Shown one piece after another: positions 1 through 45,253 of a stretch of DNA of 64,000 nucleotides. Each line of letters opens with the position of its first letter. Positions within the stretch are counted from its first letter, which is position 1. The stretch is from a virus. The position numbers were made by a program, and so were the translations under genes. The stretch lies in IMG/VR virus record IMGVR_UViG_3300025163_000003. The stretch is one strand, 5' to 3'. Below the pieces are notes generated by a model, which saw only the letters and a program-made list of their open reading frames with translations, made no database searches and was not told the DNA's origin.

Positions 1-2
1 TG

Positions 3-1224: not shown

Positions 1225-1606
1225 AATGACAGCATACAAAGGTTGGAATGCAAAGATACTGAAAGATGGTCAAGTGATAGGAACTGCTAGAGAAGTAAGA
1301 GTCACAGTAGACCATTCTCTTGAAAGATATTACATCCCATTCAGTAGGACACCTTATGAAATACGAGAAGGACAGATAAAGATAGACGGAACAATACGAA
1401 AGTTGTGGGTTGACAAGACTTATCTAACTTTGTTGGCAAATACTGGTACTCTAACTAATTTTGATCTTGAATTACAGGTGAACAATTTGCATCTCTATAT
1501 CTACAATTGTAAGTTTTCTAAAGGAGAGATCACTGTTCCTCAAGATGGTTGGATAACAGAAGACCTTGACTTTATTGGTTCTTCTATTGCTGTTGTAGAA
1601 ACTTAA
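1217..1606 (+). CDS. major tail (tube) protein-like, paralog 1
   Basis: Tandem paralog of 1653..2030; shared blocks MxxYKGWNAKIxKDG, TGTLxxFDL, CKFxxGxxxxPQDGWxxEDxDF. Sits directly upstream of the chaperone and tape-measure genes. Confidence 0.5.
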   Translation: MSKMTAYKGWNAKILKDGQVIGTAREVRVTVDHSLERYYIPFSRTPYEIREGQIKIDGTIRKLWVDKTYLTLLANTGTLTNFDLELQVNNLHLYIYNCKFSKGEITVPQDGWITEDLDFIGSSIAVVET

Positions 1607-1652
1607 GGTTTAAATAACAATCAAAGATAAGATAGAAGGTGGTGAGAGAAGA

Positions 1653-2030
1653 ATGGCGACATATAAAGGTTGGAATGCTAAAATCTACAAGGATGGACTG
1701 TTGATAGGACACTGTGATTCAGCATCAGTAGAAATAGCCACTAACCTAGAAGCCTACTATGAAATAGGCTCCAGAGTACCAACTGATCTAGTTGCTGGTA
1801 ATCAAGAAGTCACTGGCTCCCTCTCAAAGGCTTGGGTCAACAAGGACTATCTACAACTAGTTGCTGGTACAGGAACACTCTCTGAATTTGATCTTTGCTT
1901 TGAAGTTGAAAATGGACCAAAAATCTATTGCTACGACTGTAAGTTTGAGAGAGGAGCAGTGGACATTCCACAAGACGGTTGGTTGAAAGAAGACTTTGAC
2001 TTCAGGGCAAAATCAGTAGCAGTCCTCTAG
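1653..2030 (+). CDS. major tail (tube) protein-like, paralog 2
   Basis: Same conserved blocks as 1217..1606; a gene duplication. Confidence 0.5.
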   Translation: MATYKGWNAKIYKDGLLIGHCDSASVEIATNLEAYYEIGSRVPTDLVAGNQEVTGSLSKAWVNKDYLQLVAGTGTLSEFDLCFEVENGPKIYCYDCKFERGAVDIPQDGWLKEDFDFRAKSVAVL

Positions 2031-2090
2031 AAGGATTAGTACCCTAAGTAAAGGGTTTAATCCGAATCTCCAAGAAGGAGGTGTTTCGGT

Positions 2091-2444
2091 ATGAGTGAAG
2101 AAATTAAAGAGTTTGCTGAAGCAGCTGACTTGCTAGCTCCAGATGAAACTAAAGAAGTGACTCTGAAGACTATAAAGAAGAAAGTCAAGATAAGACAACT
2201 GACATTTGGTGAAATAGCTGACATAGCTAAAGTATCACAGAATGATCTAGAACAGTATGTTTGGGTAGTCTACAAAGGACTAGTAGAACCAAAACTGAAA
2301 GTAGATCAAGTCAGAAAGATGGCTCCACTGACTCTAGTTGAACTAGCCTATCATATTCAGAAGTATTCAGGACTAGACCAAGACTCTATCAAGAAACTAG
2401 AAAATTTATTGAAAACAAATATCTCTTTACAGCCTTCCAAGTAA
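2091..2444 (+). CDS. tail assembly chaperone (gpG-like)
   Basis: Acidic 117-aa protein between the major tail protein and tape-measure genes. A slippery AAATTTA lies near its 3' end, with an open -1 frame downstream. Confidence 0.5.
   Translation: MSEEIKEFAEAADLLAPDETKEVTLKTIKKKVKIRQLTFGEIADIAKVSQNDLEQYVWVVYKGLVEPKLKVDQVRKMAPLTLVELAYHIQKYSGLDQDSIKKLENLLKTNISLQPSK
2402..2408 (+). other. candidate -1 programmed ribosomal frameshift heptamer A_AAT_TTA (XXXYYYZ)
   Basis: The 0-frame codons AAT TTA (N105, L106 of the chaperone) are preceded by A. The -1 frame is open from 2342 to the TAA at 2567-2569, so a slip here would give a ~159-aa G-T-like fusion. Confidence 0.4.
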
Positions 2445-2569
2445 TGTACTACATGAAGTGGACTTTAGAAGACTTAAAGAAACTGAGAATGCCTCAATAC
2501 ATTTGGATAGTGAAGTCACTAGAGAAACAGAAACGGATGGAGGCAAGAGCATTAAGAGGTAAAAAGTAA
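2444..2569 (+). CDS. 41-aa ORF in the -1 frame of the chaperone (putative T segment of a G/GT product; also has its own ATG in a TAATG overlap)
   Basis: ATG at 2444-2446 overlaps the chaperone stop. The ORF ends 1 nt before the tape-measure ATG at 2571 and is absent from the >=60-aa track. Confidence 0.4.
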   Translation: MYYMKWTLEDLKKLRMPQYIWIVKSLEKQKRMEARALRGKK

Positions 2570-2570
2570 G

Positions 2571-4946
2571 ATGACATTAAGATCAAATGTAATAGTAGGC
2601 TTTGAAGTTGCAGGAAGACCACTGCAATGGTTAGAGAAGACTCTTGACCGTTTTGGCATGAGAATGCGACTGACAGCCAGAGACCTACTAAGATTAGGTG
2701 GCACTATTTCCTCTTATTTCTCTAGAGTTGAATCAATTTGGTTAAGATTTCTACGTCTAGGAGATGTTTTTGCTGGAGGAATGGAAGAAGTAGAATGGGT
2801 ACTAGGAGATTTAGCTGATGTAGTGGGAGAAGCATTAGAACCTGCTCTTGAATTCTTAGCTGATATACTGGAAAATGTAGTAGACTATGCTGAAGAAAAT
2901 CCATGGTTACAATGGGCTATTATTCTACCACTTATAATTGCTTTAGTAGGTAAGTTAGCAGCTGGAATACTTAGGATGGTAGGTACTATCAAACTAGCTG
3001 CAGGAACATTGATGACATGGCACCGGGAAGCACTAGGCTTTGTTGATGGTATCAGATATGTCACTATAGCTTTGACAGAAGGAAAAGAAGCAGCTGATAA
3101 ATGGTTAGTTACCACAGGAAAACTTCAAAGAATGATAGCTGAAGAGAGAGACAGATTCTTCCAACTTAGAGAGGCATTAGCTGACAAGATACAAGTTACA
3201 CGACAGAACATCAGTTTTATTGACAAAGAAATAGCTTCAAGAAAACGAAATATAGCACAGATAGATCAACAGATAAATGCTCTTACAGGATTATTGGGAA
3301 CAAGTCCAGAAGTGGCTGATAGAATAGAAGAATTAACAGCAAAGAGAGAGAAAGAAAGTACAGCTATAGAGAAGTTACAAGCCAGAAGAGATAGAGAAGT
3401 CAAGAAGCTTTACAAGTATCAAGATCAATTGATTGAAGTTGAAGGAGAAATAGCTTCTATTAACAAGTTAACTAAAGAATATGCTAAACAGTCAAAGAAA
3501 CAAGAGAAAGGAGTCAGAGGAGTATTTACAACCGTAAAGAAAGGACTCAAACCAATGGCTAAGTGGGCTGCTATAGGAACTTCATTAATAGGACTTGCTT
3601 TTGGACTGTTTCTTGCATGGGAACCATTACAAGATCTATTTGAAGTTGTGACTGACATTCTATATGACTTACTTTCTCCATTAGAACCAATAATAGAAAG
3701 TTTTGCAGACTGGTTAGAAGAGAATCCTGATCTAGCTAAGGCACTTATACTCTTGATACTGCTCTTGCCTGCTGTATTTCTAGGAATGAAAGTTCTAGGA
3801 AAAGTGGGAGGAATACTAGGGAAAGTATTTGGTAAGTTAGGTGATATCTTAGGAAAAGTAACATCTCCATTTGGTAAACTGGAACAAGGAACATGGAAGA
3901 CATACTTGGCTGAAGCAGCATTGATAGGAGCAGTAGCTGCACTTATCTTTTCACTGGCTTACTTCTTCACTTCACTTATGAAGACTGGTGTGGGACTGTG
4001 GGAAGCAGTAGGTGCTCTGTCAGCTGTCTTTGCTGCTATCTTAGGATTCTTAGGTGGACTAGTGTTACTAGCTAGAGGACTAAGTACAGTATCTTCACAA
4101 GTGTGGATGGGAATAGCTGCTCTAGCTGCTCTAGTGGGAATAGTTACTCTTCTAACTTGGGCTTTCACTATGTTGCTTCAACCACTGACACAGATAGAAG
4201 GAGGAATAGCTGCATTGTGGAACTTAGTAGGAGCATTACTGGCACTGTTAGCTGGATGCACAATTTTGATAGCTGTTCTAGGTGCTCTAGGTCCTCTAGC
4301 TCTACTAGGAGCAATGGCATTCTTGATGTTAGGTGCAGCTGTCTTAATGGCAGGAACAGGATTCTATCTTGCTGGAATGGGTGCACAATTACTGGCTCAA
4401 GCAATAGGTTTCTTGATTGACAAATTGGTTGAAAGTATAAGTGTACTACCACAAGCTGTAGCACTCTTATTTGGTCTTGGTGCTGGACTTATGGCAGTTG
4501 GTATGGGAGGACTAGTAGCTCTTGCAGGACTAATGGCTGCATTCATGGGATTTACAATGTTCTCTACAGCAATTGCAATGACAGCAGGAGCTTTGTACAT
4601 GTTAGCAGGAGCAATTTCTGCTGTAGCTGCTGCTCTTAGAGCTGTACCTGACTGGGCAAGAGGAATAGTAGGAGGTTTCTTAGGTGGTCTTGCTTCTATA
4701 GGTAGAGCTATTGGAGGAATGTTTGGCATACCAGGAGCACAAAGAGGTGGTATAGTGGAAAGAGCAGGAATTGTCTATGTACATCCTGGAGAATTAATAG
4801 TACCAGCTAGAGTGACACCTGAAGTAGGAGGAGAATATCACAATACTTTCTTCATCACAGCTTACATCAGAGGAGAAGAAGACATTAGAGCATTAGCTGA
4901 AGAAATCAATAAATTGCAAGCAGCAAAGATAGGGAGGACTGTCTAA
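2571..4946 (+). CDS. tail tape-measure protein
   Basis: 791 aa. N-terminal coiled-coil region (e.g. REKESTAIEKLQARRDREVKKLYKYQDQLIEVEGEIASINKL) is followed by many Gly/Ala-rich hydrophobic segments. Canonical position after the chaperone pair. Confidence 0.8.
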   Translation: MTLRSNVIVGFEVAGRPLQWLEKTLDRFGMRMRLTARDLLRLGGTISSYFSRVESIWLRFLRLGDVFAGGMEEVEWVLGDLADVVGEALEPALEFLADILENVVDYAEENPWLQWAIILPLIIALVGKLAAGILRMVGTIKLAAGTLMTWHREALGFVDGIRYVTIALTEGKEAADKWLVTTGKLQRMIAEERDRFFQLREALADKIQVTRQNISFIDKEIASRKRNIAQIDQQINALTGLLGTSPEVADRIEELTAKREKESTAIEKLQARRDREVKKLYKYQDQLIEVEGEIASINKLTKEYAKQSKKQEKGVRGVFTTVKKGLKPMAKWAAIGTSLIGLAFGLFLAWEPLQDLFEVVTDILYDLLSPLEPIIESFADWLEENPDLAKALILLILLLPAVFLGMKVLGKVGGILGKVFGKLGDILGKVTSPFGKLEQGTWKTYLAEAALIGAVAALIFSLAYFFTSLMKTGVGLWEAVGALSAVFAAILGFLGGLVLLARGLSTVSSQVWMGIAALAALVGIVTLLTWAFTMLLQPLTQIEGGIAALWNLVGALLALLAGCTILIAVLGALGPLALLGAMAFLMLGAAVLMAGTGFYLAGMGAQLLAQAIGFLIDKLVESISVLPQAVALLFGLGAGLMAVGMGGLVALAGLMAAFMGFTMFSTAIAMTAGALYMLAGAISAVAAALRAVPDWARGIVGGFLGGLASIGRAIGGMFGIPGAQRGGIVERAGIVYVHPGELIVPARVTPEVGGEYHNTFFITAYIRGEEDIRALAEEINKLQAAKIGRTV

Positions 4947-5392
4947 TGGTAAAGTTAATAGAATACATTTGGGATCCAGACCAACATAAGTATGTTTCCT
5001 CAGGGAACACTTTCACTTTTGATCCTCCTCCTTCATCTATTCAAAAGAATGTCAAGTGTGAATGGCGTGTAAAGCACATTGGAAAGAATGAACTTAAGAA
5101 GTTCAAGTGGAGATACAGAAGAACTTCAGCTATTAAGTTGAGAGGAGTCTTACATTCAGAAAGTGACAGACTTACTCTAGAAACTTTAGGTACAAGAAAT
5201 GCTCTCTTCAAATTAGAGATAGACTTTCAAGAACCAAAGAGTGCAGGAGAAGACATTGGTTCTGCTTATCCTCCAACTGGAAGATATGGATACTTCATCA
5301 TAACAGAGATGGTCTTTCAAGGAGTACCAGGACAGAATGATATTCAATATGAAATAACACTAGAAAGAGTTAGAGAAGATCAGGTGGGCTAA
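4946..5392 (+). CDS. tail-tip/baseplate component (distal tail protein position)
   Basis: 148-aa ORF whose ATG overlaps the tape-measure stop (TAATG), immediately upstream of the fibre gene. Confidence 0.4.
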   Translation: MVKLIEYIWDPDQHKYVSSGNTFTFDPPPSSIQKNVKCEWRVKHIGKNELKKFKWRYRRTSAIKLRGVLHSESDRLTLETLGTRNALFKLEIDFQEPKSAGEDIGSAYPPTGRYGYFIITEMVFQGVPGQNDIQYEITLERVREDQVG

Positions 5393-5393
5393 A

Positions 5394-8300
5394 ATGCAAT
5401 ATCAAGTGATCATCAAAGACAAAAACACTGGTTCAACACTTTACACTATCGATGAAGTGAAAATTGAATATGTTGAGATAGAACTGAATCTGTCTGACTT
5501 GTCTAGATTTCATATCAAGGTATTGAATGATCCTCCAATGGACATTGAAGAAGGAGATCTACTGTACTTCCAAATACAAAACATTGGTACAGGACTAAAA
5601 ACTGTCATAGGAGGAGAAATCTTAAGAGCAAAGAAAGTAATTGATGAAGGAGAGAACTACCTTGAATTAGAAGGTGAAGATTTCTCTGCTCTATTGCAGT
5701 ACAAAACAATAACTTCTGCATGGGAAGACACAGATGCAACAGACATTGTTCTTGATGTTCTTTCTCAGTTTCCTGAAATAACAACTGGAACTTATGAGAG
5801 TGCAGGAACTATCTCTTATTCATGTACAGAAAAGACAGGTTTAGAAGTTCTCCAAGATCTACACAATTACACTGGTTTTGAATTCTATGTTACACCCAAC
5901 AAAGAACTCAAATGGTTTGATCCAAACGAACATACTGGGACGACACTTACTCTGTCTGATCTAGAAAACTATGAATGTTATGAAGAAGCACATAACATCG
6001 TAAACTTTGTTAAAGTTGTAGGAGATTATAGGAGTCCTTATCCGGAAAATGAAGCAGCTACAGAAAGTGACACTTCCAATTGGACTAGTAAAAATGGAAA
6101 GACAATTGAGTTAGTGAATTCTGGTGGATTAACTCCTAAAGTTGGTGACTACTGTCTAAGAGTAGGACCTTATTCTGGTGATGCCTCTGATGAAATTGTG
6201 TATGATTTGGGAGGAACTCTTGATCTTACTAAACCTGGTTGTTACAAGAAGATCGAAGCTTTCTATGGATTTGACTTTGAAGGAAAACAGAATCTCACTA
6301 CTACAATGAAAATAAGATTGTACACAGATGACAGCAACTACTTTGAAACACCTTTTGGTGGACATTGGGGTATTAACATCACTAAGTATTGGGAGAAGAA
6401 AACAGCTAAAGTAGGTCCTAGAAGAGGAGTCTGGTATGTCTATGGAAGTCCAGACTGGTCACAAATAACAAAAGTTGGTTTCTATTTTGAACTAAGTGGT
6501 TATTCAGATACTTGGTATTTCTATTTGGATGGTTTCCAATTTACAGGAGGACAGTATAATGCAACTGCATCAGATCAGACTTCACAGAATACATGGGGTC
6601 TAAGAAAAGCCAAGACTGTCAAAGACAACTCTCTAACTTCTGATGAAATGTGTCAAGAAGTAGCAAATGCTATTATTGCTAACTTCAAAGATCCAGTACC
6701 TGTGTTGGATAACCTAGAACTGTCAGAAGGAAATGAAACATTAGAACTAGGAAAACTGATTGATGTCCAAATACCAGAAGGAACATTCACTGACAAGAAA
6801 ATAGTAAAGATCGTTCACAAGATAGATGATGGTGACTTTATTACAACTCTTTCTCTTGAGAATCCACCTAAGACAATTAATGAATTGGTTGACAGTCTGA
6901 AACATAGAATTGAACATGAAGAGACTGAACCAATAATAGAAGAAGAACCTAGTCCTTCAGGAACAGAATATCATCCACCTCCTGACATGAGTGAAGCTGT
7001 AGATACAAGTCCTGATCCACCAAGTTTCACTTGTGCTAATATTTCAGTTGTAAGAGCAGAATCAGAGATAGAGACTAAAGTAGCAATACAAGTATCTATC
7101 CCAAGAGTAGAAGAAGCAGGAGGCTATCTAGTAGATTACAGAAGAACAGATGAACCTGAGTGGAGAAGCATTATAGTTGAACAACCTTCAGCTGGTCCAG
7201 CTACTGTTCTTATTTCTGATGTAGAACTAGGGAAAGACTATGAAGTACATGTTGCATCACTTTCAAAGTTAGGTACAGCATCTAATTTTGTACCAGATCC
7301 ACCATGTGTAGTAACAATAGAAGCAGACACTGTTCCTCCTCCTGCTCCAAGTACTATTAATGCATATGAACTGTTCAATGGAATTCTCTTAGAATGGCCT
7401 GAAGTAACTGCTGCTGACTTGAAATGTTACAATGTCTTGCATAACACTATTAATGACTTGAGTTCTGCTTCAACTATTGCAAAGATAGATGCTACAACTT
7501 ACTTGTGGAAAGTACAAGATCCTAGCACTGATTATGCTGAACAATATTTCTGGGTATCAGCTGAAGACATCTATGGAAATGAGAGTGACAAGACTGGACC
7601 AGCAAAAGGAACACCTGCAAGAGCTAAACCTATTGATCTAACTATAGAAACAAGACCATGGACTTCTGACATAGGAATAATTGAAGACCATAGAACTTTT
7701 GGTAAATTCTACTATGGAAGTTCTCCAATATACTATGATGTCTCTCCTGACACAATCACAGTTGGTTCAAACACTTACAATCAGTTTGTAAATTATGAAC
7801 CTGATTCTTCTGCCAATGTCGTTCATACTAGATCTAGCAGCACTTCTTATTACACTACTTATTGGGGTGTACGAGTATTCAAAGTAGACTCCTCAGGCAA
7901 TGAGTCAGAAATAACTGATGGGAACCCTGTTGCAATTGTATCAAGAACTTCTGATGGAGAAGGTGTTCAAACTACTACATGGTCATTTCCTGGTTGTACT
8001 CTTGATCCAACTGACAGAATTTGCATAAAATACTATTCTAGAATAGGCACATCTGACTGGGTAGAAAAACTTAACGTTGTGACTCCTGAATTAGGAGTTT
8101 CAAGTCTTCCCGCTCAGTTATGGAGATTCAAATACTACACGAAAAGATTAACTCTGTACTTTGATCAATACTACACTAACAATTATCTTTTCTTTGGAAA
8201 AGACAAGAACACTAGTTTTCTTGGTTTAGCTGATGGTTTCATTAAGTTTGCAGATGGTTCTAGTAAGTCAATTCTAAGAGACACTGATGGCACTAAATTG

Positions 8301-10241
8301 ACTTCATCAGTAGAAGGAGTTCACTATGTTTATTGGGAAGATGGTGTTTCAGACTTACAATGGTCAACAGATTATTCAGACGCAGTTGGAGAAGGTAAAG
8401 GTTTAATTGCAATAATAGATAGAAAGACTTCCGAACCTTCTTCTATACTTCCTTTCAATACTTACAAACCAACTATAAGTGCAGGTGTAATAGCTGCCAA
8501 AAGTATTTTAGCTGAACATATACGAGCCAATCAGATAACAGCAGATCATATAGTAACAGGTGCTATTCACAGTGATCATATTGCAGCAGGACAAATAAAA
8601 AGTGATCATATTGCCACAAGTCAGATTGAAGCTAAACACATTAAAGCAGGAGAAATAACAGCTGAAAAGTTAACTGTTGGCTTTGCCAACTACTTACCAG
8701 ATGGTGATTTTGAAATAGGAGATCTTTCCAAAGAATGGCAAGTAGAAACTGGTTCTGCAAGTCTAGACACATATGCTTATTCAGGAAATTATTCACTAAA
8801 AGTAACAGCTGATTATTACAATTCCGACACAGGAAACTATGAGGGACGAGTTCACAGTAGAACTTATATTCCATGTATCGGTGGGGAACGATTTTATATA
8901 CGAGCTAGATTAGACACAACCAACAATGCAAAAGCAAGAATAGAAATAGCCTTCTATGATCAAAACAAAAGTTATATTTCTTCAACTACTGCAATCTCAC
9001 TTCCCTTTACAGGAATTGATTGGACAGAAGGAAAAGTCTCATTTACTGCACCAGACAATGCCTCTTACTTTAGAGTCTACTGTATTGCATTTGAAAGTAG
9101 TAGTGGAGTGAGTGCTAATTTTGATGATATTTATATCAGGAAACAAATCTTCACAGAAGATATAGATGATGATGCTATAGTAGCAAGTAAAATCGCAGCA
9201 GGAGAAGTCAAGACAGAACATATTAGATTCAGTGGTACTCAACCTTCTCAAGTTGAAGCAGGAATGTTATGGTATGATTCTTCAGAACATCTGATAAAAT
9301 TTGCAGAAGGCCCTAATGCAACTGATTGGTATTACATTCCCAAATATCCACTTTATGAATCTATGGCACCTCAAGAAAACTTCATACCAAATCAAAGTTT
9401 TGAGTATGATAGAGATGGTGATGGACAACCAGATTATTGGGAACATCACTGGGATGAAGGAGGATCACCAACTTATGATTATGTTTCCGACCATACAAGA
9501 AAGGGAGGCAAAGCTGTCAAAACAACATGTGACGTAGGTGAAAAGGCAGGTTGGATATCCACAGTCTATATTCCCGTCGCTGAAGGACAGAAATACTATG
9601 CCTCGGTCTGGATCTATTCTGGAAGTGCGAATGCTAGTGGAACAGTCTATTTATTGGCTGAATGTTATGATGCAGAGAAAAATTGGATCAACTACGTAAA
9701 TTTCGCATCAACAAGTCCTCCAGTAAGCAGTTGGAAACAAGTGAGCGGTGTAGCAACTATTCCAACTAACACACGATATATAAGACTAGCATTCAAACAT
9801 GTAAATGAAGATGGTACAAACACAAAATCTGTTTGGTGGGATGACGTAACTCTAAGTGAACTAAGAATGTTACCAGCTTCAGCCTACAGCTCTTCCAGTA
9901 GCGAACTGACTAATATGCTCGAAGGTCAACATACGTTACTAAGCAAAACAGTGTATTGCAATGAAGAATCTTACCTTTGGATTATTGCAATATTCAAAAG
10001 AAAGAATCAAACTACTCAAGTCAGTTTCTTCTTTAAAGTCGACGGGAATGTAAAAGGTCTTACTTGGCCAGTCCTTAGTGAATCCTCTGATTACGTGACT
10101 GATTGCATCCAAGCCCTAGTTCCAGTATCAAAAGGCGATCACACTGTAGAATTAATCTGTTCAGTTGGGTCCTCACCAGCAGCAGCCTCGGTGTATCACA
10201 GGTACATGGTAATTCAAGTCCTAAGACAAATTTCTGCTTAA
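5394..10241 (+). CDS. tail fibre / receptor-binding protein with FN3-like and tandem carbohydrate-binding-module-like domains
   Basis: 1615 aa. Two FN3-like segments (aa ~540-750). A five-fold decapeptide repeat HIxxGQIxxD (EHIRANQITAD HIVTGAIHSD HIAAGQIKSD HIATSQIEAK HIKAGEITAEK) encoded around 8510-8670. Two C-terminal CBM4/9-like jelly-roll-looking domains (YSLKVTADYY...ANFDDIYI and NQSFEYDRDGD...VWWDDVTLSE). Confidence 0.7.
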   Translation: MQYQVIIKDKNTGSTLYTIDEVKIEYVEIELNLSDLSRFHIKVLNDPPMDIEEGDLLYFQIQNIGTGLKTVIGGEILRAKKVIDEGENYLELEGEDFSALLQYKTITSAWEDTDATDIVLDVLSQFPEITTGTYESAGTISYSCTEKTGLEVLQDLHNYTGFEFYVTPNKELKWFDPNEHTGTTLTLSDLENYECYEEAHNIVNFVKVVGDYRSPYPENEAATESDTSNWTSKNGKTIELVNSGGLTPKVGDYCLRVGPYSGDASDEIVYDLGGTLDLTKPGCYKKIEAFYGFDFEGKQNLTTTMKIRLYTDDSNYFETPFGGHWGINITKYWEKKTAKVGPRRGVWYVYGSPDWSQITKVGFYFELSGYSDTWYFYLDGFQFTGGQYNATASDQTSQNTWGLRKAKTVKDNSLTSDEMCQEVANAIIANFKDPVPVLDNLELSEGNETLELGKLIDVQIPEGTFTDKKIVKIVHKIDDGDFITTLSLENPPKTINELVDSLKHRIEHEETEPIIEEEPSPSGTEYHPPPDMSEAVDTSPDPPSFTCANISVVRAESEIETKVAIQVSIPRVEEAGGYLVDYRRTDEPEWRSIIVEQPSAGPATVLISDVELGKDYEVHVASLSKLGTASNFVPDPPCVVTIEADTVPPPAPSTINAYELFNGILLEWPEVTAADLKCYNVLHNTINDLSSASTIAKIDATTYLWKVQDPSTDYAEQYFWVSAEDIYGNESDKTGPAKGTPARAKPIDLTIETRPWTSDIGIIEDHRTFGKFYYGSSPIYYDVSPDTITVGSNTYNQFVNYEPDSSANVVHTRSSSTSYYTTYWGVRVFKVDSSGNESEITDGNPVAIVSRTSDGEGVQTTTWSFPGCTLDPTDRICIKYYSRIGTSDWVEKLNVVTPELGVSSLPAQLWRFKYYTKRLTLYFDQYYTNNYLFFGKDKNTSFLGLADGFIKFADGSSKSILRDTDGTKLTSSVEGVHYVYWEDGVSDLQWSTDYSDAVGEGKGLIAIIDRKTSEPSSILPFNTYKPTISAGVIAAKSILAEHIRANQITADHIVTGAIHSDHIAAGQIKSDHIATSQIEAKHIKAGEITAEKLTVGFANYLPDGDFEIGDLSKEWQVETGSASLDTYAYSGNYSLKVTADYYNSDTGNYEGRVHSRTYIPCIGGERFYIRARLDTTNNAKARIEIAFYDQNKSYISSTTAISLPFTGIDWTEGKVSFTAPDNASYFRVYCIAFESSSGVSANFDDIYIRKQIFTEDIDDDAIVASKIAAGEVKTEHIRFSGTQPSQVEAGMLWYDSSEHLIKFAEGPNATDWYYIPKYPLYESMAPQENFIPNQSFEYDRDGDGQPDYWEHHWDEGGSPTYDYVSDHTRKGGKAVKTTCDVGEKAGWISTVYIPVAEGQKYYASVWIYSGSANASGTVYLLAECYDAEKNWINYVNFASTSPPVSSWKQVSGVATIPTNTRYIRLAFKHVNEDGTNTKSVWWDDVTLSELRMLPASAYSSSSSELTNMLEGQHTLLSKTVYCNEESYLWIIAIFKRKNQTTQVSFFFKVDGNVKGLTWPVLSESSDYVTDCIQALVPVSKGDHTVELICSVGSSPAAASVYHRYMVIQVLRQISA

Positions 10242-10291
10242 AGAAAAACTTAAAAATCTTAGAGTCTTTAATCACATTCGGGTGAAGAGAC

Positions 10292-16424: not shown

Positions 16425-16426
16425 CT

Positions 16427-23423: not shown

Positions 23424-23566
23424 TTACTTCTCCTCTCTGAGACGACAGATCTTGCACCATTCCACTAGTGATTCTGGCTTCAGTTTCCACTCTGTCCTGA
23501 TGGGGCATTTCTTTCTCTTGTCCCATACACAAGGGTATGACTTCTTTTCTGTCATAGGATACCTCC

Positions 23567-39946: not shown

Positions 39947-40864
39947 TTAAGGAGTTGGTTGAATCAATACAGGTACTCCATTTTCTCCTGTTGCAAGAAT
40001 TATCACTGGAACATCTAATTCTTTCAATGTCTGCAACCACAAATACAGCTCCAACAGTTCTGTTGAATTCATATCTGGATAAATGGACATTATCAGTTCC
40101 ATAGCTTCTTTAATACCCTCTGCTTCAATTATTTTTGCTTGTGCATATCCTTCTGCTTCTATTATCTTGGACTGTGCAGTGGCATTAGCTAATATCAACA
40201 TTCTTTCTTTCTCAAACTCTGCTTGTATTTTCTGTTGCTCTGCACATAACTTCTGTTCTATGGCATCTACATATGCTTGCGGTAGAGCAATATTTCTCAA
40301 GTCCACTTGCAAGTTGATCAGAGCATTTGCCAGTGAAGGTTCATTTTGTATAGCTGCAATAATTTCAGATTCTGCTTGATCAGCTATGACATCACGATAT
40401 AGTATAGTTTCTACAGCAGTGTATTGCTTAGTAATAAATCTCACTCGTTCTCTAACCAGTGATGCAATAGTCTTTTCTTTGTAGTCCAAGTGAGGGTAAT
40501 TGAGATAAAGATCTCTGATTTTCTCTATGTCCAATGACCATCTGACCATTATGTCAATTCTCATTTCCAACTGATCTTTAGAGAAACAAGCTACTGCAGG
40601 AAAGTCAGCAGTAGGATCGGAACCATCTCCCCACATTCCCAAAGTGTCTGTTGCAACATAAATTTTCACTACTGATACCCAAGGTGCTTTTGTACCCCAA
40701 GCAGGTCCTAAAATTGGACCAGAGACAGAACCTGACAATGGATTCACTAGGAGTGCAGCATAACCTGTTCCCACTGTGTAGAACATTGTTCCAAAGAAGA
40801 CTCCAAGAAATATTGCTGACAGTAGAATACCAATCAACAGAATAACTTTCTTTTCCATCCTCAA
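39947..40864 (-). CDS. SPFH/band-7 (stomatin/prohibitin/HflK-like) membrane protein
   Basis: N-terminal TM VILLIGILLSAIFLGVFFG. SPFH core with coiled-coil QKIQAEFEKERMLILANATAQSKIIEAEGYAQAKIIEAEGIKEA. Confidence 0.75.
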   Translation of the reverse strand: MRMEKKVILLIGILLSAIFLGVFFGTMFYTVGTGYAALLVNPLSGSVSGPILGPAWGTKAPWVSVVKIYVATDTLGMWGDGSDPTADFPAVACFSKDQLEMRIDIMVRWSLDIEKIRDLYLNYPHLDYKEKTIASLVRERVRFITKQYTAVETILYRDVIADQAESEIIAAIQNEPSLANALINLQVDLRNIALPQAYVDAIEQKLCAEQQKIQAEFEKERMLILANATAQSKIIEAEGYAQAKIIEAEGIKEAMELIMSIYPDMNSTELLELYLWLQTLKELDVPVIILATGENGVPVLIQPTP

Positions 40865-41484
40865 CTTTCACCTCCATTAGGAATTTCATATTCTTCCAAA
40901 CAGTCAAAGATTTCATACAGTCTCTTACAGTTCTCAGTTTTAGGATACTTTGACTTCTTCCTTCTTTTGTTAAGTTGGTTAACATCCTTCTCATTCAAGT
41001 GAATAACTTCCCAACCTAAATCTTCCAGTATTTTATTCTTACGTTCATCTGCACTTTCTCTATTCCACATCTTGTGCCATACAGAAGGTGACACTTCAAT
41101 AACTAATTTCTTTTCTGGTATCACAAAATCACACCAGTAATAGACTTTATTGTCATTTTCATTTATGAATGGTCCAATACGAGAATTGTGAAAGAAATCT
41201 AGACCTTCGAATAGTCCTCTGTTCTTTAGAAATCTTCTCACTTTCTCTTCTGAAGAAGTGTAATAAGTAGGACTTCTGTTTGGCTTACTTCCTACTTTGC
41301 TACAGAACTTTCTAAAGTTAGCTGATACAGCTGTTGAAGTCTTATACTGACACTTGCACTTGGAACATAACATTAGAGCAAATCCTTTTCTGTCATGCAT
41401 GTAGGGAGGATTATAAGTGCCACATTTGGGACAAGGATATTCTACTTCTACAGTTTTCACGTTTTTCTTCACTTTCATTGGCAC
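40861..41484 (-). CDS. Zn-ribbon + PD-(D/E)xK-fold nuclease-like protein
   Basis: CPKCG...CSKCKC N-terminus; C-terminal YYWCDFVIPEKKLVIEVSPSVWH (D...E.K). Confidence 0.45.
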   Translation of the reverse strand: MPMKVKKNVKTVEVEYPCPKCGTYNPPYMHDRKGFALMLCSKCKCQYKTSTAVSANFRKFCSKVGSKPNRSPTYYTSSEEKVRRFLKNRGLFEGLDFFHNSRIGPFINENDNKVYYWCDFVIPEKKLVIEVSPSVWHKMWNRESADERKNKILEDLGWEVIHLNEKDVNQLNKRRKKSKYPKTENCKRLYEIFDCLEEYEIPNGGES

Positions 41485-41882
41485 TGTTTCTTCACCTCAT
41501 CAAAACACAATTTCAAGAGAACTTCTGACTTTCCAATAGCTCCTTGTAATGGTATTTCTTTCTTGTATTCCAAGACAGGTTTCTCATCAGCTGGATTCAG
41601 AAACACTATCACTACTTTTCCCTTCAAACATGGTTTCTTTATCTTCAGAAGTAATTTCATTGAAAGAGAAGAAGTGTGATAATCCCAGTTGAGATAAGAG
41701 ATGTCAAGAGGAAGTTTCTTCCCATCTCCATATGCAAAAACTAGTAACTTGCATTTCTGAAGACGAGTAAAGACATGTTTTTGTAAAGACTTCAGTGATG
41801 GATTGTCAAGGTAATAAGGATCATGCAAAATAACTTCTGTCATTTCTTCACCAATAGGAGTAATAGAGTCTTTCCCACTCAT
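41475..41882 (-). CDS. hypothetical protein
   Basis: 135 aa. Confidence 0.3.
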   Translation of the reverse strand: MSGKDSITPIGEEMTEVILHDPYYLDNPSLKSLQKHVFTRLQKCKLLVFAYGDGKKLPLDISYLNWDYHTSSLSMKLLLKIKKPCLKGKVVIVFLNPADEKPVLEYKKEIPLQGAIGKSEVLLKLCFDEVKKQCQ

Positions 41883-43092
41883 TGACTACTGCATTTTTAC
41901 CACGAGTCAAGAAGTCCTTGATTTCTCTCTCTTTTAGTTCTATGTATTTGTCAAACATTTCACTACCAAGAGTCTCTTTCACAAGAGTATCAGATTTCAT
42001 TTCTGAAAGAGCTTCTAGTAATGACTTGGGAAGAGAAGGTAAGTTGTGTTCATAGGCATTACTTGAAAGTGGATCACCAGGATCAATTTTCTTTCTTACT
42101 CCCTCTAGACCAGCTTTCAACAGAACACTTAAGGCAAGATAAGGATTAGCAAGAGGATCAGATGCTCTATATTCAATTCTCATTCTCTCTTCCAAATTCT
42201 GTGAAGAATACAGAGGAACTCTTATCAGACAAGACCTATTCTTGAAACCCCAACTTATGTTGACAGGAGCTTCAGAATTCTTCTTTAGTCGTCTATAAGA
42301 ATTTACAGTTGGGCACATAATGGCTGACATTCCTCTAGCATGTTCCAATATACCACCAATGAAATATCTTCCAAATTGTGAGAGACCATTGTCATAGAAG
42401 AGATTTCCATTGTCAAACATTGAAATATGAAAGTGCATACCATTTCCTGGTAAGTGTGCCCATGGTTTTGGCATGAAGTTTACTTCTACTGTATGACTTT
42501 CTTTCAAGTATCTTCTCAAGAGAAATTTTATGAGAATAATGTTCTCAGAAGTGTTGATAGGAGAAGAATACTTAATACAGATTTCACTCTGGGAAGGACC
42601 AACTTCATGATTTCCATATTCCACATCTAATCCTGCTTTCTCTAAGACTTCCATAGCTTCCATTCTCAGACTTTCTGTTTCATCAGGAAAGATTTGACAG
42701 TATCTGTCAAGTAAATTCTCTGGCTCAAGAGGATTACCATTCTTAGTAAAGTAAAATTCTACTTCTGCTCCTACACGGATATTCTGATGAAATTCTTCTA
42801 AAGTTTTCTCTAAGACATACCTTGGATCAAGAGAGAATCTTTTGTCATCTTGATAGACTTCACAGAAGACTGTTGAGAATGGCTCACTCAAGTCACTGAA
42901 AAATATCTCTTTCTTAGTTCTTTCTATTGGCTTCAGAAGAAGATCAGAATTTTCTATTGTTGCAAAACCATCTACTGAAGAACCATCAAAACCAGTTCCC
43001 TCTTGTAGAACTACTTGATACTTGTCTTCAGGAATTGTTCTTACTCTTAATTTACCATTCAAGTCTAGGAAGAGAAGATAGACTATTTTCAT
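41848..43092 (-). CDS. glnA: glutamine synthetase family protein
   Basis: N-terminal beta-grasp signature GTGFDGSSVDGFATIENSDLLLKP. ATP-binding signature MPKPWAHLPGNGMHFHISMF. 414 aa. Confidence 0.85.
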   Translation of the reverse strand: MKIVYLLFLDLNGKLRVRTIPEDKYQVVLQEGTGFDGSSVDGFATIENSDLLLKPIERTKKEIFFSDLSEPFSTVFCEVYQDDKRFSLDPRYVLEKTLEEFHQNIRVGAEVEFYFTKNGNPLEPENLLDRYCQIFPDETESLRMEAMEVLEKAGLDVEYGNHEVGPSQSEICIKYSSPINTSENIILIKFLLRRYLKESHTVEVNFMPKPWAHLPGNGMHFHISMFDNGNLFYDNGLSQFGRYFIGGILEHARGMSAIMCPTVNSYRRLKKNSEAPVNISWGFKNRSCLIRVPLYSSQNLEERMRIEYRASDPLANPYLALSVLLKAGLEGVRKKIDPGDPLSSNAYEHNLPSLPKSLLEALSEMKSDTLVKETLGSEMFDKYIELKEREIKDFLTRGKNAVVNEWERLYYSYW

Positions 43093-43212
43093 TCTGTCTT
43101 CTCCTTTGCAAAGTGTTTCTTGAGTCTAGCTAACATGCAGATGGGGCATATTGGACTTAGAGGATGATCAACTTCTTCAATCTGAAAGATTTCACTTAGT
43201 TTTTCTCTCCAT

Positions 43213-43641
43213 TTACCCATTCAGTTCACCCTCCAATTCATCTAACAACTGAATAAAGAATTCAAGTTGTTCTCTCCATTCTCTGTTATCTAACCAAATA
43301 CAGTATCGTAAACGATCACAGTGAAGGCCATAAAGACTGAAACTTAGTTTTGGAGAAAACTTTCTGTCAAGTGGCTTCAAGATTCTATCAATAACTGTCT
43401 CAGGATCAAGAGAAGTTCTGAAGTCAATATGTGCTCTTCTACCTCCTTTCTCTGGATCTTCTCCATGACCACAGCAACTTTGAGTTGTCACTATAAATTT
43501 GTGTCTGTTTATTCTCTCAAGATAAGGAATCATTTCTTCATCTACATATCCCATTTGTATTTCTTCCTTCAGAGATTCTAATCTAAGTCTTCGTTCTTGT
43601 GGTGTCATCCTGTTTCCTTTGAACCTCTCCATCGAAAACAC
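43213..43641 (-). CDS. hypothetical protein
   Basis: 142 aa; QSCCGHGED motif; start region overlaps the topoisomerase 3' end. Confidence 0.3.
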   Translation of the reverse strand: MFSMERFKGNRMTPQERRLRLESLKEEIQMGYVDEEMIPYLERINRHKFIVTTQSCCGHGEDPEKGGRRAHIDFRTSLDPETVIDRILKPLDRKFSPKLSFSLYGLHCDRLRYCIWLDNREWREQLEFFIQLLDELEGELNG

Positions 43642-45253
43642 CTAATTCTTTCATGGCCCATTCAAACTTCTTTCTTAGACTTTTTGAATATGCTTTTTCA
43701 ACAGGATAATTGTATTTCAAACAGTACTTCAGAATTCTTCTTGGGTCAATGTATGAATTGAGAGAAGTGTTCAAGTTCCATTCAGCTGTTTCCTTTGTAA
43801 CTTCATAATCAAGTCTGTACTCAACTATCTTCTCCTTAATCTTTCTTATTCGTTCAAGTAGTCTTGCTTTCTGTTTCTCTGTCTTTGCCTTCTTTAACTT
43901 TTCTTCCAATTCCTTCAACTTTTCTTCATACTTCTGTATCCTTTCTTCTTTCTTCTTTAGTCTCTCTTGAAAGTTCTTAGGTAATTTCTTCTTGTGGTTA
44001 AGTCTTTTAGCAACATCACAATTGATAAGTTTGAAGGCTGTCTTCTTCAGATATAATGGTGAGTCTTCCTTGACTTCATAAAGGGAAGTGTACTTTTCTT
44101 CTGACATTTCCCATGTCTTACCAGCTAAGTGAGTCCTGAATATCTTTGCAGTTGCATTTGGAATTACTTCTTGTAAGAACTTGGCTATCTTCTTAGAATT
44201 CAAAGAGTCAAACACTCTCTGTCCTTTAGGAGTCTTCTTCCACAGTTTGAAGAAAACTTTGTGAATATCAGAAGGAAGCTCCAACTCTCTATGCCATGGG
44301 ACAAAATCTTTCCCTATGAAGTCAAGAATAACTTTGTTTCCTTCAAACTGAATATTTTCTTTTTTGAGTGTGGTACAACCTACGTTCCCTGTTTCACCAG
44401 CTATCTTTTCATCACCAACTCTAATTCCCATTTGCTGTATCAACCATACAGCAAGACCTAATTTCTGTCTTTCTTCATCATCTGAGAGAATAGCACTCTT
44501 GATGTGTTTGTCTAATTTCTTTTGATACTTGGGAATCTTAAGAGCTAGATCCCATTTCTTCTTTGCTCGTTCTTGTCTTATAACTGAATCCATACTGAAC
44601 CAGACATACTTCCACTTTCCACTGAGAGGATCTCGCCAACGAGCTATGTATAATTTGTCTGGCTTCCATTCTACCTTCCATCTTCCATCCGGTCTCGGTG
44701 CATCAGGAGATAAGTTGAGTATGATCTCCTCTTCCTTGATCCTTCTTTTGTAGCGTCCTCTCAGTGGATGTTTTCCTTTTGAAATATATAGTCCTGGTGG
44801 CTCAACTGTCCAATTCATAATTGGTACTCTTTGTCCATCCACAATAGCATATCCATATTTCTCCTTCAATGCTTCCCTCATCTTCTTTCTATCTTCTCTT
44901 AGTTTCTTCTTCATCTCTTTAGGTAAGTTCTTCTTCAGTTCCTTCTCTTTCTGTAATGCTTCATAGACCGATGAAAAGTCAAAGTCTTCCAACTTTACTT
45001 CTTCTTCAATGTTGAGTGCTATTCTCAAATCAGACAAGAAGTTGTTGACAAAGACTTCATCTTTCATGTAGTCAGTATCAAATTTCTTGACAAATGCAAC
45101 TACCATTTCTTCTTGTTCTGGTGTAAGTTTTATTTTCTTTCCTTTGTACTTGATAGTGTATCCTTTTGGCTCATAGGGAGGGATGTAAACTCCATTGTGT
45201 ATCAGTTGTTTCATAAGATTTCCCTCAGATACTTCCAAGCAAACCAAGTACAA
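43583..45253 (-). CDS. eukaryotic-type DNA topoisomerase IB
   Basis: HNGVYIPPYEPKGYTIKYKGKKIKLTPEQEEMVVAFVKKFDTDYMKDEVFVNNFLSDLR aligns with the human TOP1 core (HKGPVFAPPYEPL...YDGKVMKLSPKAEEVATFF...KEIFRKNFFKDWR). The active-site Tyr context TSLNSYIDPR matches TSKLNYLDPR. Confidence 0.9.
   Translation of the reverse strand: MYLVCLEVSEGNLMKQLIHNGVYIPPYEPKGYTIKYKGKKIKLTPEQEEMVVAFVKKFDTDYMKDEVFVNNFLSDLRIALNIEEEVKLEDFDFSSVYEALQKEKELKKNLPKEMKKKLREDRKKMREALKEKYGYAIVDGQRVPIMNWTVEPPGLYISKGKHPLRGRYKRRIKEEEIILNLSPDAPRPDGRWKVEWKPDKLYIARWRDPLSGKWKYVWFSMDSVIRQERAKKKWDLALKIPKYQKKLDKHIKSAILSDDEERQKLGLAVWLIQQMGIRVGDEKIAGETGNVGCTTLKKENIQFEGNKVILDFIGKDFVPWHRELELPSDIHKVFFKLWKKTPKGQRVFDSLNSKKIAKFLQEVIPNATAKIFRTHLAGKTWEMSEEKYTSLYEVKEDSPLYLKKTAFKLINCDVAKRLNHKKKLPKNFQERLKKKEERIQKYEEKLKELEEKLKKAKTEKQKARLLERIRKIKEKIVEYRLDYEVTKETAEWNLNTSLNSYIDPRRILKYCLKYNYPVEKAYSKSLRKKFEWAMKELGVFDGEVQRKQDDTTRTKT

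What the first reader, a model, noticed from the sequence alone, without database searches (positions are those of the whole stretch)
41848..43092. Virus-encoded glutamine synthetase
Both GS signatures are present: the beta-grasp FDGSSVDGF motif and the ATP-binding KPWAHLPGNGMHFHISMF motif. The gene is in a compact 414-aa form embedded among viral genes. If the host is an ammonia-oxidising thaumarchaeon, as the topoisomerase IB, low GC and Alba suggest, this is a nitrogen-assimilation auxiliary metabolic gene acting on the product of host energy metabolism. Alternatively it is a GS-like gamma-glutamyl ligase used for another purpose.
Basis: partly seen in the sequence, partly recalled or inferred. 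Interest (0 to 1): 0.65.

Follow-up and report, generated by a model that had tools for sequence, protein, structure and literature searches.

The report
Glutamine synthetase in an archaeal virus
A large tailed virus of archaea from anoxic Guaymas Basin vent sediment carries an intact but trimmed-down, highly diverged glutamine synthetase gene, most likely to make glutamine for its own replication; viral copies of this enzyme are already known elsewhere, and the proposed ammonia-oxidiser host is not supported.

Summary
Window 41848-43092 (-) encodes a 414-aa two-domain glutamine synthetase (GS), and both quoted motifs are present. It is truly viral. It lies on one contig with tail-tube, tape-measure and fibre genes. 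An HK97 capsid gene sits just upstream of the window. The identical protein recurs in three assemblies. All six metal ligands and the catalytic residues are intact, and the fold model matches GSI-alpha structures (TM 0.86-0.88). So it is neither a pseudo-enzyme nor a polyamine-type gamma-glutamyl ligase by the known markers. It is an orphan, fast-evolving branch: at most 47% identical to anything in 15 billion proteins. It groups with Bathyarchaeia-type GS in 100/100 bootstraps. It lacks the N-terminal helix that docks PII/GlnK in M. mazei GS, the 2-oxoglutarate pocket and the glutamine-feedback arginine. Its Glu-flap is altered. It sits in a four-gene cargo island after Topo IB that sister viruses lack. 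The ammonia-oxidiser host idea is not supported: Topo IB and Alba are widespread in archaea, the sediment is anoxic, and no Nitrososphaeria GS appears among the near relatives. Viral GS genes are already catalogued in large phages, giant viruses and seep viromes. This is a new member of a known kind, and possibly the first documented in an archaeal tailed virus.

The parts
41848..43092 (-). Viral glutamine synthetase, GSI-alpha type, 414 aa. Beta-grasp domain is residues 2-81 and catalytic domain residues 88-407.
   Evidence: ORF; Pfam; NCBIfam; PDB sequence hits; catalytic residues; AF2 model pLDDT 87.8; Foldseek TM 0.86-0.88 to GSI-alpha.
43101..43105 (-). AGGAG Shine-Dalgarno-like motif, with an 8-nt spacer before the GS ATG
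   Evidence: Read directly from the sequence. Its function is inferred.
43089..43220 (-). 43-aa ORF (MGKWREKLSEIFQIEEVDHPLSPICPICMLARLKKHFAKEKTE). Its stop overlaps the GS start (ATGA) and its start overlaps the stop of the TYW3-like gene. Function unknown.
   Evidence: It was called as a gene in two independent contigs.
43213..43641 (-). 142-aa ORF with a marginal TYW3 (wybutosine methyltransferase) N-terminal match. First gene of the cargo island.
   Evidence: Pfam TYW3 28.7 bits against a cut-off of 27; phrog_7413; absent from sister viruses.
41475..41882 (-). 135-aa ORF of unknown function that overlaps the GS 3' end by 35 nt (an alternative ATG lies at 41843). Last gene of the cargo island.
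   Evidence: no Pfam or PHROG hit; absent from sister viruses.
43583..45253 (-). Eukaryote-type DNA topoisomerase IB. Conserved backbone gene that bounds the island upstream.
   Evidence: Pfam; 54-56% identical orthologs in sister viruses.
40861..41484 (-). 207-aa zinc-ribbon plus DUF559/Vsr-like endonuclease-fold protein. Conserved backbone gene that bounds the island downstream.
   Evidence: Pfam DUF559 2.1e-05; ortholog in sister viruses (55% in L012, 30% partial in L014).
1217..10241 (+). Virion module on the same contig: two tail-tube genes (1217-1606, 1653-2030), tape-measure-like gene (2571-4946) and tail-fibre-like gene (5394-10241). An HK97 major capsid gene lies about 1.2 kb upstream of window position 1.
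   Evidence: Phage_tube_2 and Phage_capsid Pfam hits on L004; PHROG tail and major-head hits; L004 is 100% identical to window 1-10742.

Best explanation
The gene encodes a catalytically competent type I-alpha glutamine synthetase (glutamate + NH4+ + ATP -> glutamine). A tailed archaeal virus of at least ~106-116 kb captured it long ago from a Bathyarchaeia-like (Thermoproteota) lineage. It now sits in a hypervariable cargo island just downstream of Topo IB, inside the long co-directional replication and nucleotide-metabolism gene block, and is translationally coupled to its neighbours.

Shown: it is viral, its fold and full catalytic set are intact, and it belongs to GSI-alpha.

Shown by sequence: it lacks three control elements described for GSI-alpha enzymes. 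These are the N-terminal 'crown' helix that docks the PII protein GlnK1 in M. mazei GS, the 2-oxoglutarate activation pocket, and the arginine that mediates glutamine feedback inhibition.

Inferred: during infection it supplies glutamine free of the host's nitrogen-status control. Glutamine is the amide-nitrogen donor for purines, CTP, GMP, NAD and hexosamines. In ammonium-rich sediment the host's own GS would be expected to be throttled. The virus also encodes a B12-dependent ribonucleotide reductase, a deoxyribosyltransferase and a complete amino-sugar pathway, all of which draw on that nitrogen pool.
For: Viral origin:
- The GS lies on one contig with tail-tube, tape-measure and fibre genes. 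An HK97 capsid gene sits just upstream.
- An identical protein in the same context occurs in three assemblies. The only 2 nucleotide differences are synonymous.
- GC (36.1%) and GC3 (28%) match the other viral genes.
- Start and stop codons overlap those of the neighbouring genes.

Enzyme:
- Pfam finds both domains.
- The best NCBIfam model is GlnA type I at 360.7 bits, against 238 for type III and 231 for gamma-glutamylputrescine synthetase.
- All six metal ligands are kept (E110, E112, E163, E170, H220, E307), as are D36, S39, Y131, R268, E274, R286, R291 and R309.
- 109 of 138 near-invariant columns are retained despite about 45% identity.
- The AF2 model has pLDDT 87.8 and pTM 0.91. Its best structural matches are GSI-alpha transition-state complexes.

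Origin:
- 100 of 100 NJ bootstraps place it with the Bathyarchaeia-type assemblage.
- The nearest cluster is named Bathyarchaeota GS.
- Bathyarchaeota top the reference-genome scan.

Regulation:
- The 2-oxoglutarate site residues (Mm F24, R26, S38, R87, R172, R173, S189) read I, Y, V, S, R, M, G. Mm R66 (Bs R62) is Thr45 (residues taken from PMC11957540 and PMC10799026).
- The protein starts at about Mm residue 22-23. It therefore lacks the crown helix and the E19/R20/D21 residues that contact GlnK1 (PMC10651883).

Context:
- RNR, PolB, deoxyribosyltransferase and HD genes, plus the set epimerase/dehydratase, DegT, GNAT, glycosyltransferases and NTP-transferase.
Against: - No activity or expression data exist.
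- The protein scores below the GlnA equivalog cut-off (360.7 against 429.15).
- The three residues before the catalytic flap Glu are changed, PGYE to KNSE. These are conserved in 112-115 of 119 relatives.
- The Asn264 equivalent is Pro, as in the proven polyamine ligase GlnA2. The nearest cellular GS also carry Pro or Ala there.
- The Tyr179-loop region is remodelled and modelled with low confidence at residues 125-135.
- The lack of the 2-oxoglutarate and feedback sites is shared with the cellular relatives, so it is inherited rather than a viral adaptation.
- A cellular 407-aa GS also lacks the N-terminal helix.
- No glutamine-dependent amidotransferase was found in the part of the window that was annotated.
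- Sister viruses manage without a GS.
Confidence: 0.62

Rival explanations
1. It is a GS-like gamma-glutamyl ligase that joins glutamate to an amine other than ammonia. Candidates are a polyamine, ethanolamine, methylamine, or an amino group on a sugar or nucleotide intermediate of the virus's own modification pathways.
For: - It scores below the GlnA equivalog threshold.
- Asn264 is Pro, one of the ammonium-site substitutions reported for GlnA2.
- Its Glu-flap (KNSE) is unique.
- It has the longest branch in the tree: 0.58 against 0.39 +/- 0.04.
- The Tyr179 loop is remodelled.
- The virus encodes amino-sugar genes and a DUF1599 'nucleotide modification' gene.
Against: - The ammonium-pocket residues that are replaced in GlnA2, GlnA3 and similar enzymes (Ser53, Tyr179, Glu327), and Asp50, are all kept (PMC8998196).
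- The gamma-glutamylputrescine synthetase profile scores 231 bits against a cut-off of 650, and 130 bits below the GlnA profile.
- Pro or Ala at position 264 is shared by cellular proteins that NCBI annotates as type I GS.
- The tree places it inside GSI-alpha.
Confidence: 0.17
2. It is a moonlighting or decoy GS. Its main role would be to bind or titrate host nitrogen regulators, or to form mixed oligomers with host GS, rather than to make glutamine.
For: GSI-alpha enzymes are known to act as regulator-binding platforms: B. subtilis GS with GlnR, and M. mazei GS with GlnK1 and sP26 (cited). A 43-aa ORF is translationally coupled to the viral GS.
Against: - The regulator-docking crown helix is the very element that is missing.
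- Every catalytic residue is conserved despite about 55% divergence, which indicates selection for catalysis.
Confidence: 0.06
3. It is not a viral gene: either a cellular fragment joined to viral DNA by mis-assembly, or a decaying passenger gene.
For: Sister viruses lack it. No IMG/VR contig carries a relative.
Against: - The same junctions appear in three independent assemblies.
- The composition is virus-like.
- The coding overlaps with both neighbours are intact.
- The ORF is full length with all catalytic residues.
- No cellular protein is more than 47% identical to it.
Confidence: 0.02

Closest known systems
Cellular GSI-alpha of Bathyarchaeia (e.g. NCBI MCD6243281.1 / RLG99403.1, cluster P0002)
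   Same: - Two-domain fold and the full catalytic set.
- The 'P/A-G-N' variant of the Asn264 loop.
- No 2-oxoglutarate pocket and no feedback arginine.
- No GSI-beta insertion and no adenylylation motif.
   Different: - Only 45-47% identical.
- The viral protein is about 45 aa shorter: the N-terminal helix is lost, 8 aa are lost after the Tyr loop, and there are several 1-5 aa deletions.
- The Glu-flap reads KNSE instead of PGYE.
- 29 of 138 near-invariant columns are changed.
- It is encoded by a virus.
Structurally characterised archaeal and Gram-positive GSI-alpha (M. mazei 8S59/8TFK, M. shengliensis 8OOW, B. subtilis 4LNI, P. polymyxa 7TDP)
   Same: The fold matches at TM 0.86-0.88. The metal, ATP, glutamate and ammonium site residues are the same.
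   Different: - It lacks the M. mazei/M. thermolithotrophicus 2-oxoglutarate site.
- It lacks the B. subtilis/M. shengliensis/M. mazei feedback arginine.
- It lacks the N-terminal crown that docks GlnK1.
GS genes reported as auxiliary metabolic genes in other viruses: 'moraphages' (PMC12619734), Mimiviridae MAGs (PMC9270025), a SAR86 virus (PMC10721903), cold-seep viromes (bioRxiv 10.64898/2025.12.10.692286), and phrog_21628
   Same: It is a virus-borne GS homolog interpreted as manipulating nitrogen or glutamine metabolism. Like them, it is uncharacterised biochemically.
   Different: - The host domain is Archaea, and the virus belongs to an undescribed archaeal tailed lineage with Topo IB.
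- The GS is of Bathyarchaeia-type GSI-alpha ancestry and is an orphan at 47% identity or less.
- No close relative was found in GenBank phage records or in IMG/VR.
GS-like gamma-glutamyl-amine ligases (GlnA2/GlnA3/GlnA4, PuuA, GmaS)
   Same: The fold is the same, and position 264 is Pro as in GlnA2.
   Different: It keeps Ser53, Tyr179 and Glu327, and it scores far better against the GlnA profile than against the GGputSyn or type III profiles.

Membership tests
Glutamine synthetase type I (GlnA), alpha subtype | N-terminal beta-grasp domain plus C-terminal catalytic domain | tested here: met
   PF03951 59.2 bits and PF00120 299.6 bits. The AF2 model superposes on GSI-alpha structures at TM 0.86-0.88.
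Glutamine synthetase type I (GlnA), alpha subtype | Six metal ligands (E. coli E129, E131, E212, E220, H269, E357) | tested here: met
   E110, E112, E163, E170, H220 and E307.
Glutamine synthetase type I (GlnA), alpha subtype | Ammonium and glutamate site: D50', S53', Y179, N264, R321, E327; plus the phosphate-binding R339, R344 and R359 | tested here: inconclusive
   All are kept except N264, which is P215. That change is shared with the nearest cellular GS (57 Pro and 54 Ala among 119). The flap residues before E327 read KNS instead of PGY.
Glutamine synthetase type I (GlnA), alpha subtype | Alpha rather than beta subtype: no ~25-aa insertion and no adenylylation motif | tested here: met
   The alignment with E. 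coli GlnA shows the insertion is absent. The adenylylation pattern is absent (pattern quoted from memory).
Glutamine synthetase type I (GlnA), alpha subtype | Reaches the curated equivalog score (TIGR00653 cut-off 429.15) | tested here: not met
   360.7 bits. GlnA is still the best-scoring model by more than 120 bits. The shortfall fits the deletions and the divergence.
Glutamine synthetase type I (GlnA), alpha subtype | Phylogenetic placement within GSI-alpha | tested here: met
   100 of 100 NJ bootstraps place it with the Bathyarchaeia-type GSI-alpha assemblage, with E. coli GSI-beta as outgroup. The method was NJ only, and no Nitrososphaeria GS was in the set.
Glutamine synthetase type I (GlnA), alpha subtype | Glutamate-ammonia ligase activity and dodecameric assembly | not testable with these tools
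   This needs an enzyme assay and SEC, mass photometry or cryo-EM.
GS-like gamma-glutamyl-amine ligases (GlnA2/3/4, PuuA, GmaS) | Substituted ammonium pocket (Ser53, Tyr179 and/or Glu327 replaced) and a profile match | tested here: not met
   S39, Y131 and E274 are kept. NF045547 scores 231 bits against a cut-off of 650, and TIGR03105 scores 238 against 469.6. Only the N264-to-Pro change resembles GlnA2.
2-oxoglutarate-activated archaeal GS (M. mazei / M. thermolithotrophicus type) | 2-oxoglutarate pocket: F24, R26, R87, R172, R173, S189 (M. mazei numbering) | tested here: not met
   Only R172 (viral R143) is kept. The other positions read I, Y, S, M, G.
Glutamine-feedback-inhibited GSI-alpha (B. 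subtilis / M. shengliensis type) | Arg62 (B. subtilis) / Arg66 (M. mazei) in the Asp50' loop | tested here: not met
   Thr45.
Virus-encoded auxiliary metabolic gene | Flanked on both sides by viral genes, on a contig with virion hallmark genes, and reproducible across assemblies | tested here: met

The most novel reading that the evidence does not exclude
This is the first glutamine synthetase documented in an archaeal virus. It would be a streamlined, 'regulator-blind' enzyme: no PII-docking crown, no 2-oxoglutarate switch, no glutamine feedback, and a rewired Glu-flap. It would uncouple glutamine supply from the host's nitrogen sensing in ammonium-rich anoxic sediment. Because the GS is of Bathyarchaeia-type ancestry, it would also tie a new family of roughly 100-kb Topo IB-encoding tailed viruses to uncultured sediment Thermoproteota.
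Probability: 0.3. Interest if true: 0.6.

Novelty: new member of a known kind. Interest (0 to 1): 0.45.

Why it matters
Glutamine is the main amide-nitrogen currency for nucleotide and amino-sugar synthesis. A viral GS that ignores host nitrogen signals would be a direct way for a virus with a large genome to lift a biosynthetic bottleneck. It would show that archaeal viruses in subsurface sediments reprogram nitrogen assimilation, as has been proposed for large phages and giant viruses.

In practical terms, the protein is a naturally minimised GSI-alpha. It could test how the N-terminal crown, the Glu-flap and the Tyr loops contribute to assembly and regulation.

The surrounding genome defines an undescribed archaeal tailed-virus lineage, with Topo IB, Alba, XPF, a RadA-like protein, ClpP and an amino-sugar pathway. 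That lineage recurs in Guaymas Basin sediment.

Tried and rejected
- GenBank phage records searched with the GS: 24 hits at 37% identity or less, mostly unannotated fragments or bacterial contigs filed as phage. Not informative.
- IMG/VR scan with the GS: no relative found.
- tRNA scan of the window: none found, so no tRNA-based host clue.
- Host assignment by gene affinity gave mixed signals, so the host lineage is left unresolved.
  - GS points to Bathyarchaeia.
  - Topo IB points to Nitrososphaeria MAGs at 49-51%, against 40-43% for Bathyarchaeia.
  - RNR is 58-64% identical to many archaeal phyla.
- I tested whether the compact cellular GS P0109 (407 aa) represents the donor lineage. Shared-derived-residue counts (9 of 40) were no better than for control sequences (for example 8 of 27 for P0074). 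Rejected as evidence.
- The Asn264-to-Pro change looked at first like a virus-specific sign of altered substrate. It is a trait of the whole clade.
- Capsid, PolB and Topo IB searches against deposited viruses gave no usable classification.
- PHROG searches of the putative portal and terminase-sized ORFs upstream of the capsid gene found nothing.
- The Bathyarchaeia-virus paper PMC10541130 mentions neither glutamine nor topoisomerase.
Full report
**Observation**

The ORF at 41848-43092 on the minus strand is real: ATG start, 414 aa. Both quoted motifs are present, at residues 35 and 209. Pfam finds the GS beta-grasp domain (3e-16) and the catalytic domain (3.6e-89). Among NCBIfam models the best is GlnA type I at 360.7 bits. 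That is below its equivalog cut-off of 429.15. It is well above type III GS (238) and gamma-glutamylputrescine synthetase (231). The best solved-structure relatives are GSI-alpha enzymes of Methanosarcina mazei, Paenibacillus, Bacillus, Listeria and Staphylococcus (E about 1e-73 to 1e-66).

**Is it viral?**

Yes.
- The window carries two Phage_tube_2 genes, a tape-measure-like gene and a 1615-aa fibre-like gene.
- On a 73.9-kb ENA contig that is 100% identical to window 1-10742, an HK97-fold major capsid gene lies about 1.2 kb upstream of the window's first gene. PHROGs confirms the capsid with ten 'major head protein' families.
- The rest of the window is one long co-directional block on the minus strand. 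It holds family-B DNA polymerase, B12-type ribonucleotide reductase, XPF/ERCC4 nuclease, a Rad51/RadA-like ATPase, two ParB-N proteins, Topo IB, RNase H, RNA ligase, a MoxR-like AAA protein, ClpP, a Band_7 protein, nucleoside deoxyribosyltransferase, HD and metallophosphatase genes, Alba, and a full amino-sugar pathway.
- The exact GS protein, in the same context, occurs in three assemblies. The window differs from the JGI contig by 2 nucleotides in the GS, both at third codon positions.
- GS GC (36.1%) and GC3 (28%) match the other viral genes.
- The GS start overlaps the stop of a 43-aa ORF (ATGA). That ORF in turn overlaps the stop of the upstream gene. An AGGAG motif lies 8 nt before the GS ATG. 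The downstream ORF overlaps the GS 3' end.

Two ENA contigs together imply a genome of about 116 kb; the arithmetic uses the coordinates. No deposited virus is close. The capsid is at most 33% identical over partial matches to bacterial phages. PolB is 25-28% identical to haloarchaeal tailed viruses. Topo IB has no match at all.

**Is the enzyme intact?**

I aligned the protein with E. coli GlnA (fetched) and M. mazei GlnA1. Every metal ligand is present: E110, E112, E163, E170, H220, E307. So are D36 (D50'), S39 (S53'), Y131 (Y179), R268 (R321), E274 (E327), R286 (R339), R291 (R344) and R309 (R359). The protein retains 109 of the 138 columns that are at least 95% conserved in its 119 nearest relatives. 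An AlphaFold2 model is confident (pLDDT 87.8, pTM 0.91). It is weak only at residues 125-135, the remodelled Tyr179-loop region. Its best structural matches are GSI-alpha transition-state complexes at TM 0.86-0.88.

**GS or GS-like ligase?**

Published discriminators for gamma-glutamylpolyamine synthetases are substitutions at Ser53, Tyr179, Asn264 and Glu327 (PMC8998196). The viral protein keeps Ser, Tyr and Glu. Asn264 is Pro. However, the nearest cellular proteins, which NCBI annotates as type I GS, carry Pro or Ala there: 57 and 54 of 119 respectively. In most of them an Asn sits two residues later ('PGN').

Several features are specific to the virus:
- The flap before the catalytic Glu reads KNSE instead of PGYE, which is conserved in 112-115 of 119 relatives.
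- About 16-21 N-terminal residues are lost.
- Eight residues are deleted just after the Tyr loop.
- Several deletions of 1-5 residues lie around the Tyr179 loop.

I rate true GS activity as most likely (about 0.6-0.65). An altered amine substrate is the main rival (about 0.17).

**Regulatory sites**

The M. mazei 2-oxoglutarate pocket is F24, R26, S38, R87, R172, R173, S189 (PMC11957540). The M. thermolithotrophicus equivalent is described in PMC10799026. In the viral protein these positions read I, Y, V, S, R, M, G. The glutamine-feedback arginine (Mm R66, Bs R62) is Thr45. The cellular relatives lack both sites too, so these absences are inherited.

In M. mazei GS the N-terminal helices form a 'crown' into which the PII protein GlnK1 docks, contacting E19, R20 and D21 (PMC10651883). 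The viral protein begins at about the equivalent of residue 22-23, so this element is entirely missing. A cellular 407-aa GS (P0109) starts at the same position. It is flanked by ribosomal protein genes and comes from a sample whose ENA accession (ERZ27247235) is numerically close to the virus's (ERZ27245482). Compactness is therefore not a viral invention.

**Origin**

Among 5.8 billion clustered proteins, the only hit above 47% identity is the protein itself. An exhaustive HMMER scan of 1.84 billion representatives confirms that it forms its own 50%-identity cluster; the next single-domain relative is 45% identical. Every NCBI-named protein among the top 120 hits is from Bathyarchaeia. The nearest cluster is named Bathyarchaeota GS. 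In GTDB species-representative genomes the top four loci are Bathyarchaeota at 40-44%. Mixed bacterial and archaeal GSI-alpha follow at 34-39%, and no Nitrososphaeria appear. That scan was limited by its peptide patterns.

In NJ trees the viral GS joins the Bathyarchaeia-type assemblage in 100 of 100 bootstraps. Its exact position there is unresolved: sister to the whole core clade in 28, nested inside it in 20, and sister to a set within the extended group in 52. Its branch from the shared node is 0.58, against 0.39 +/- 0.04 for the cellular tips. By contrast, this virus's RNR is 58-64% identical to cellular homologs.

**Genomic setting**

Two sister viruses have Topo IB 54-56% identical and contigs of 75-95 kb. 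One comes from a scaffold labelled DOMB18-1_SAMN06251742, which I take from memory, unchecked, to be a Guaymas Basin data set. They share the backbone: MoxR-AAA ... GNAT - RNase H - Topo IB ... DUF559-like endonuclease - 108aa - 122aa - deoxyribosyltransferase - ClpP - metallophosphatase - NTP-transferase. They have no GS. The four genes between Topo IB and the endonuclease are unique to this virus: the TYW3-like gene, the 43-aa ORF, the GS and the 135-aa ORF (window 41475-43641). In the same slot the sister viruses carry a GT4 glycosyltransferase or a ribosomal protein S26e homolog. The GS is therefore lineage-specific cargo in a hypervariable island, not a core gene of the virus family.

**Host and environment**

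JGI sample 3300013103, one of the samples that carries this virus, is Guaymas Basin sediment core 4571-4 (PMC6478937). That these hydrothermal sediments are anoxic and ammonium-rich is my own background knowledge. Ammonia oxidisers need oxygen.

Topo IB homologs occur in many archaeal phyla. The nearest cellular ones are in Nitrososphaeria MAGs at 49-51%, in housekeeping gene contexts. I could not establish whether those MAGs are ammonia oxidisers. Bathyarchaeia Topo IB is 40-43% identical.

The host is an archaeon, probably of Thermoproteota, and its lineage is unresolved. Its premise is also mis-stated, because ammonia is the substrate of that energy metabolism, not its product.

**Mechanism proposed**

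Shown: an intact GSI-alpha catalytic machine encoded by a virus.

Inferred: it is expressed together with the replication and nucleotide-metabolism block, and it makes glutamine independently of host nitrogen-status control. Glutamine is the amide donor for purine, CTP, GMP, NAD and hexosamine synthesis. This is a plausible bottleneck for replicating a genome of more than 100 kb in an ammonium-replete cell, where host GS would be expected to be kept low. The virus's own RNR, deoxyribosyltransferase and amino-sugar pathway (4,6-dehydratase, DegT aminotransferase, GNAT, glycosyltransferases, NTP-transferase) draw on that pool. No glutamine amidotransferase was found in the annotated part of the window, and about 50 kb of the genome lies outside it.

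**Comparison with what is known**

Viral GS genes have been reported before:
- nine 'moraphage' genomes (PMC12619734);
- Mimiviridae MAGs (PMC9270025);
- a virus predicted to infect SAR86 (PMC10721903);
- cold-seep and digester viromes;
- a PHROG family, phrog_21628, that matches at 2e-85 and is annotated 'unknown function'.

None of these has been characterised biochemically. I found no report of a GS in an archaeal virus, and the Bathyarchaeia-virus survey does not mention one. The verdict is a new member of a known kind, with some variant features: compact, without the crown helix, with an altered flap, and an orphan branch. Interest is moderate.

Noticed in passing
L014 12967-13260 and L015 10963-11256 (sister-virus contigs): Sister viruses carry a ribosomal protein S26e homolog (PF01283) in the same variable slot downstream of Topo IB where this virus carries the GS.
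   Followed up: no
window 13144-19310 and 31554-32249 (-): A complete nucleotide-amino-sugar pathway: NAD-dependent epimerase/4,6-dehydratase, DegT aminotransferase, GT2/Anp1-like transferase, GNAT, two GT4 glycosyltransferases, and separately an NTP-transferase. This suggests glycosylation of virion or host surface with an N-acetylated amino-deoxy sugar.
   Followed up: partly
window 43089-43220 (-): A 43-aa ORF with a CPIC motif is translationally coupled to both the TYW3-like gene and the GS, and is conserved in two independent contigs. It recalls small GS-binding proteins such as M. mazei sP26, but no homology was tested.
   Followed up: partly
window 43213-43641 (-); L096 6957-7949: The gene upstream of the viral GS has a marginal TYW3 (wyosine pathway) match. 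The compact cellular GS P0109 sits next to a TYW1 (radical SAM + Wyosine_form) gene. This may be coincidence or the trace of a shared ancestral neighbourhood.
   Followed up: no
window 43583-45253 (-); L012, L014: A eukaryote-type Topo IB is a conserved backbone gene of a family of roughly 75-165 kb archaeal tailed-virus contigs. It has no match in GenBank phage or archaeal-virus records.
   Followed up: partly
window 22460-24493, 24495-25337, 57460-58398, 37508-38095, 39947-40864, about 56500: An unusual cellular-type toolkit for a tailed virus: short-form XPF/ERCC4 + HhH nuclease, a Rad51/RadA-like ATPase, two ParB-N proteins, ClpP, a Band_7/SPFH protein and Alba.
   Followed up: no
P0383 (4424 aa), P0384 (2757 aa), P0385 (1356 aa) in the representative library: Giant predicted proteins with 3 to 12 tandem GS-like stretches scored among the top hits. 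They may be fusion artefacts or real multi-GS polyproteins.
   Followed up: no
window about 34555-34985: In the ENA assembly the virus is split into two contigs (73.9 kb and 43.1 kb) whose ends overlap by about 430 bp here. This suggests a repeat or a strain-variation break point.
   Followed up: no
window 29792-30169 (-): A small ORF next to the RNR has a sub-threshold DUF1599 match ('nucleotide modification associated domain 1', 21.6 bits against a cut-off of 25). This may hint at DNA modification.
   Followed up: no
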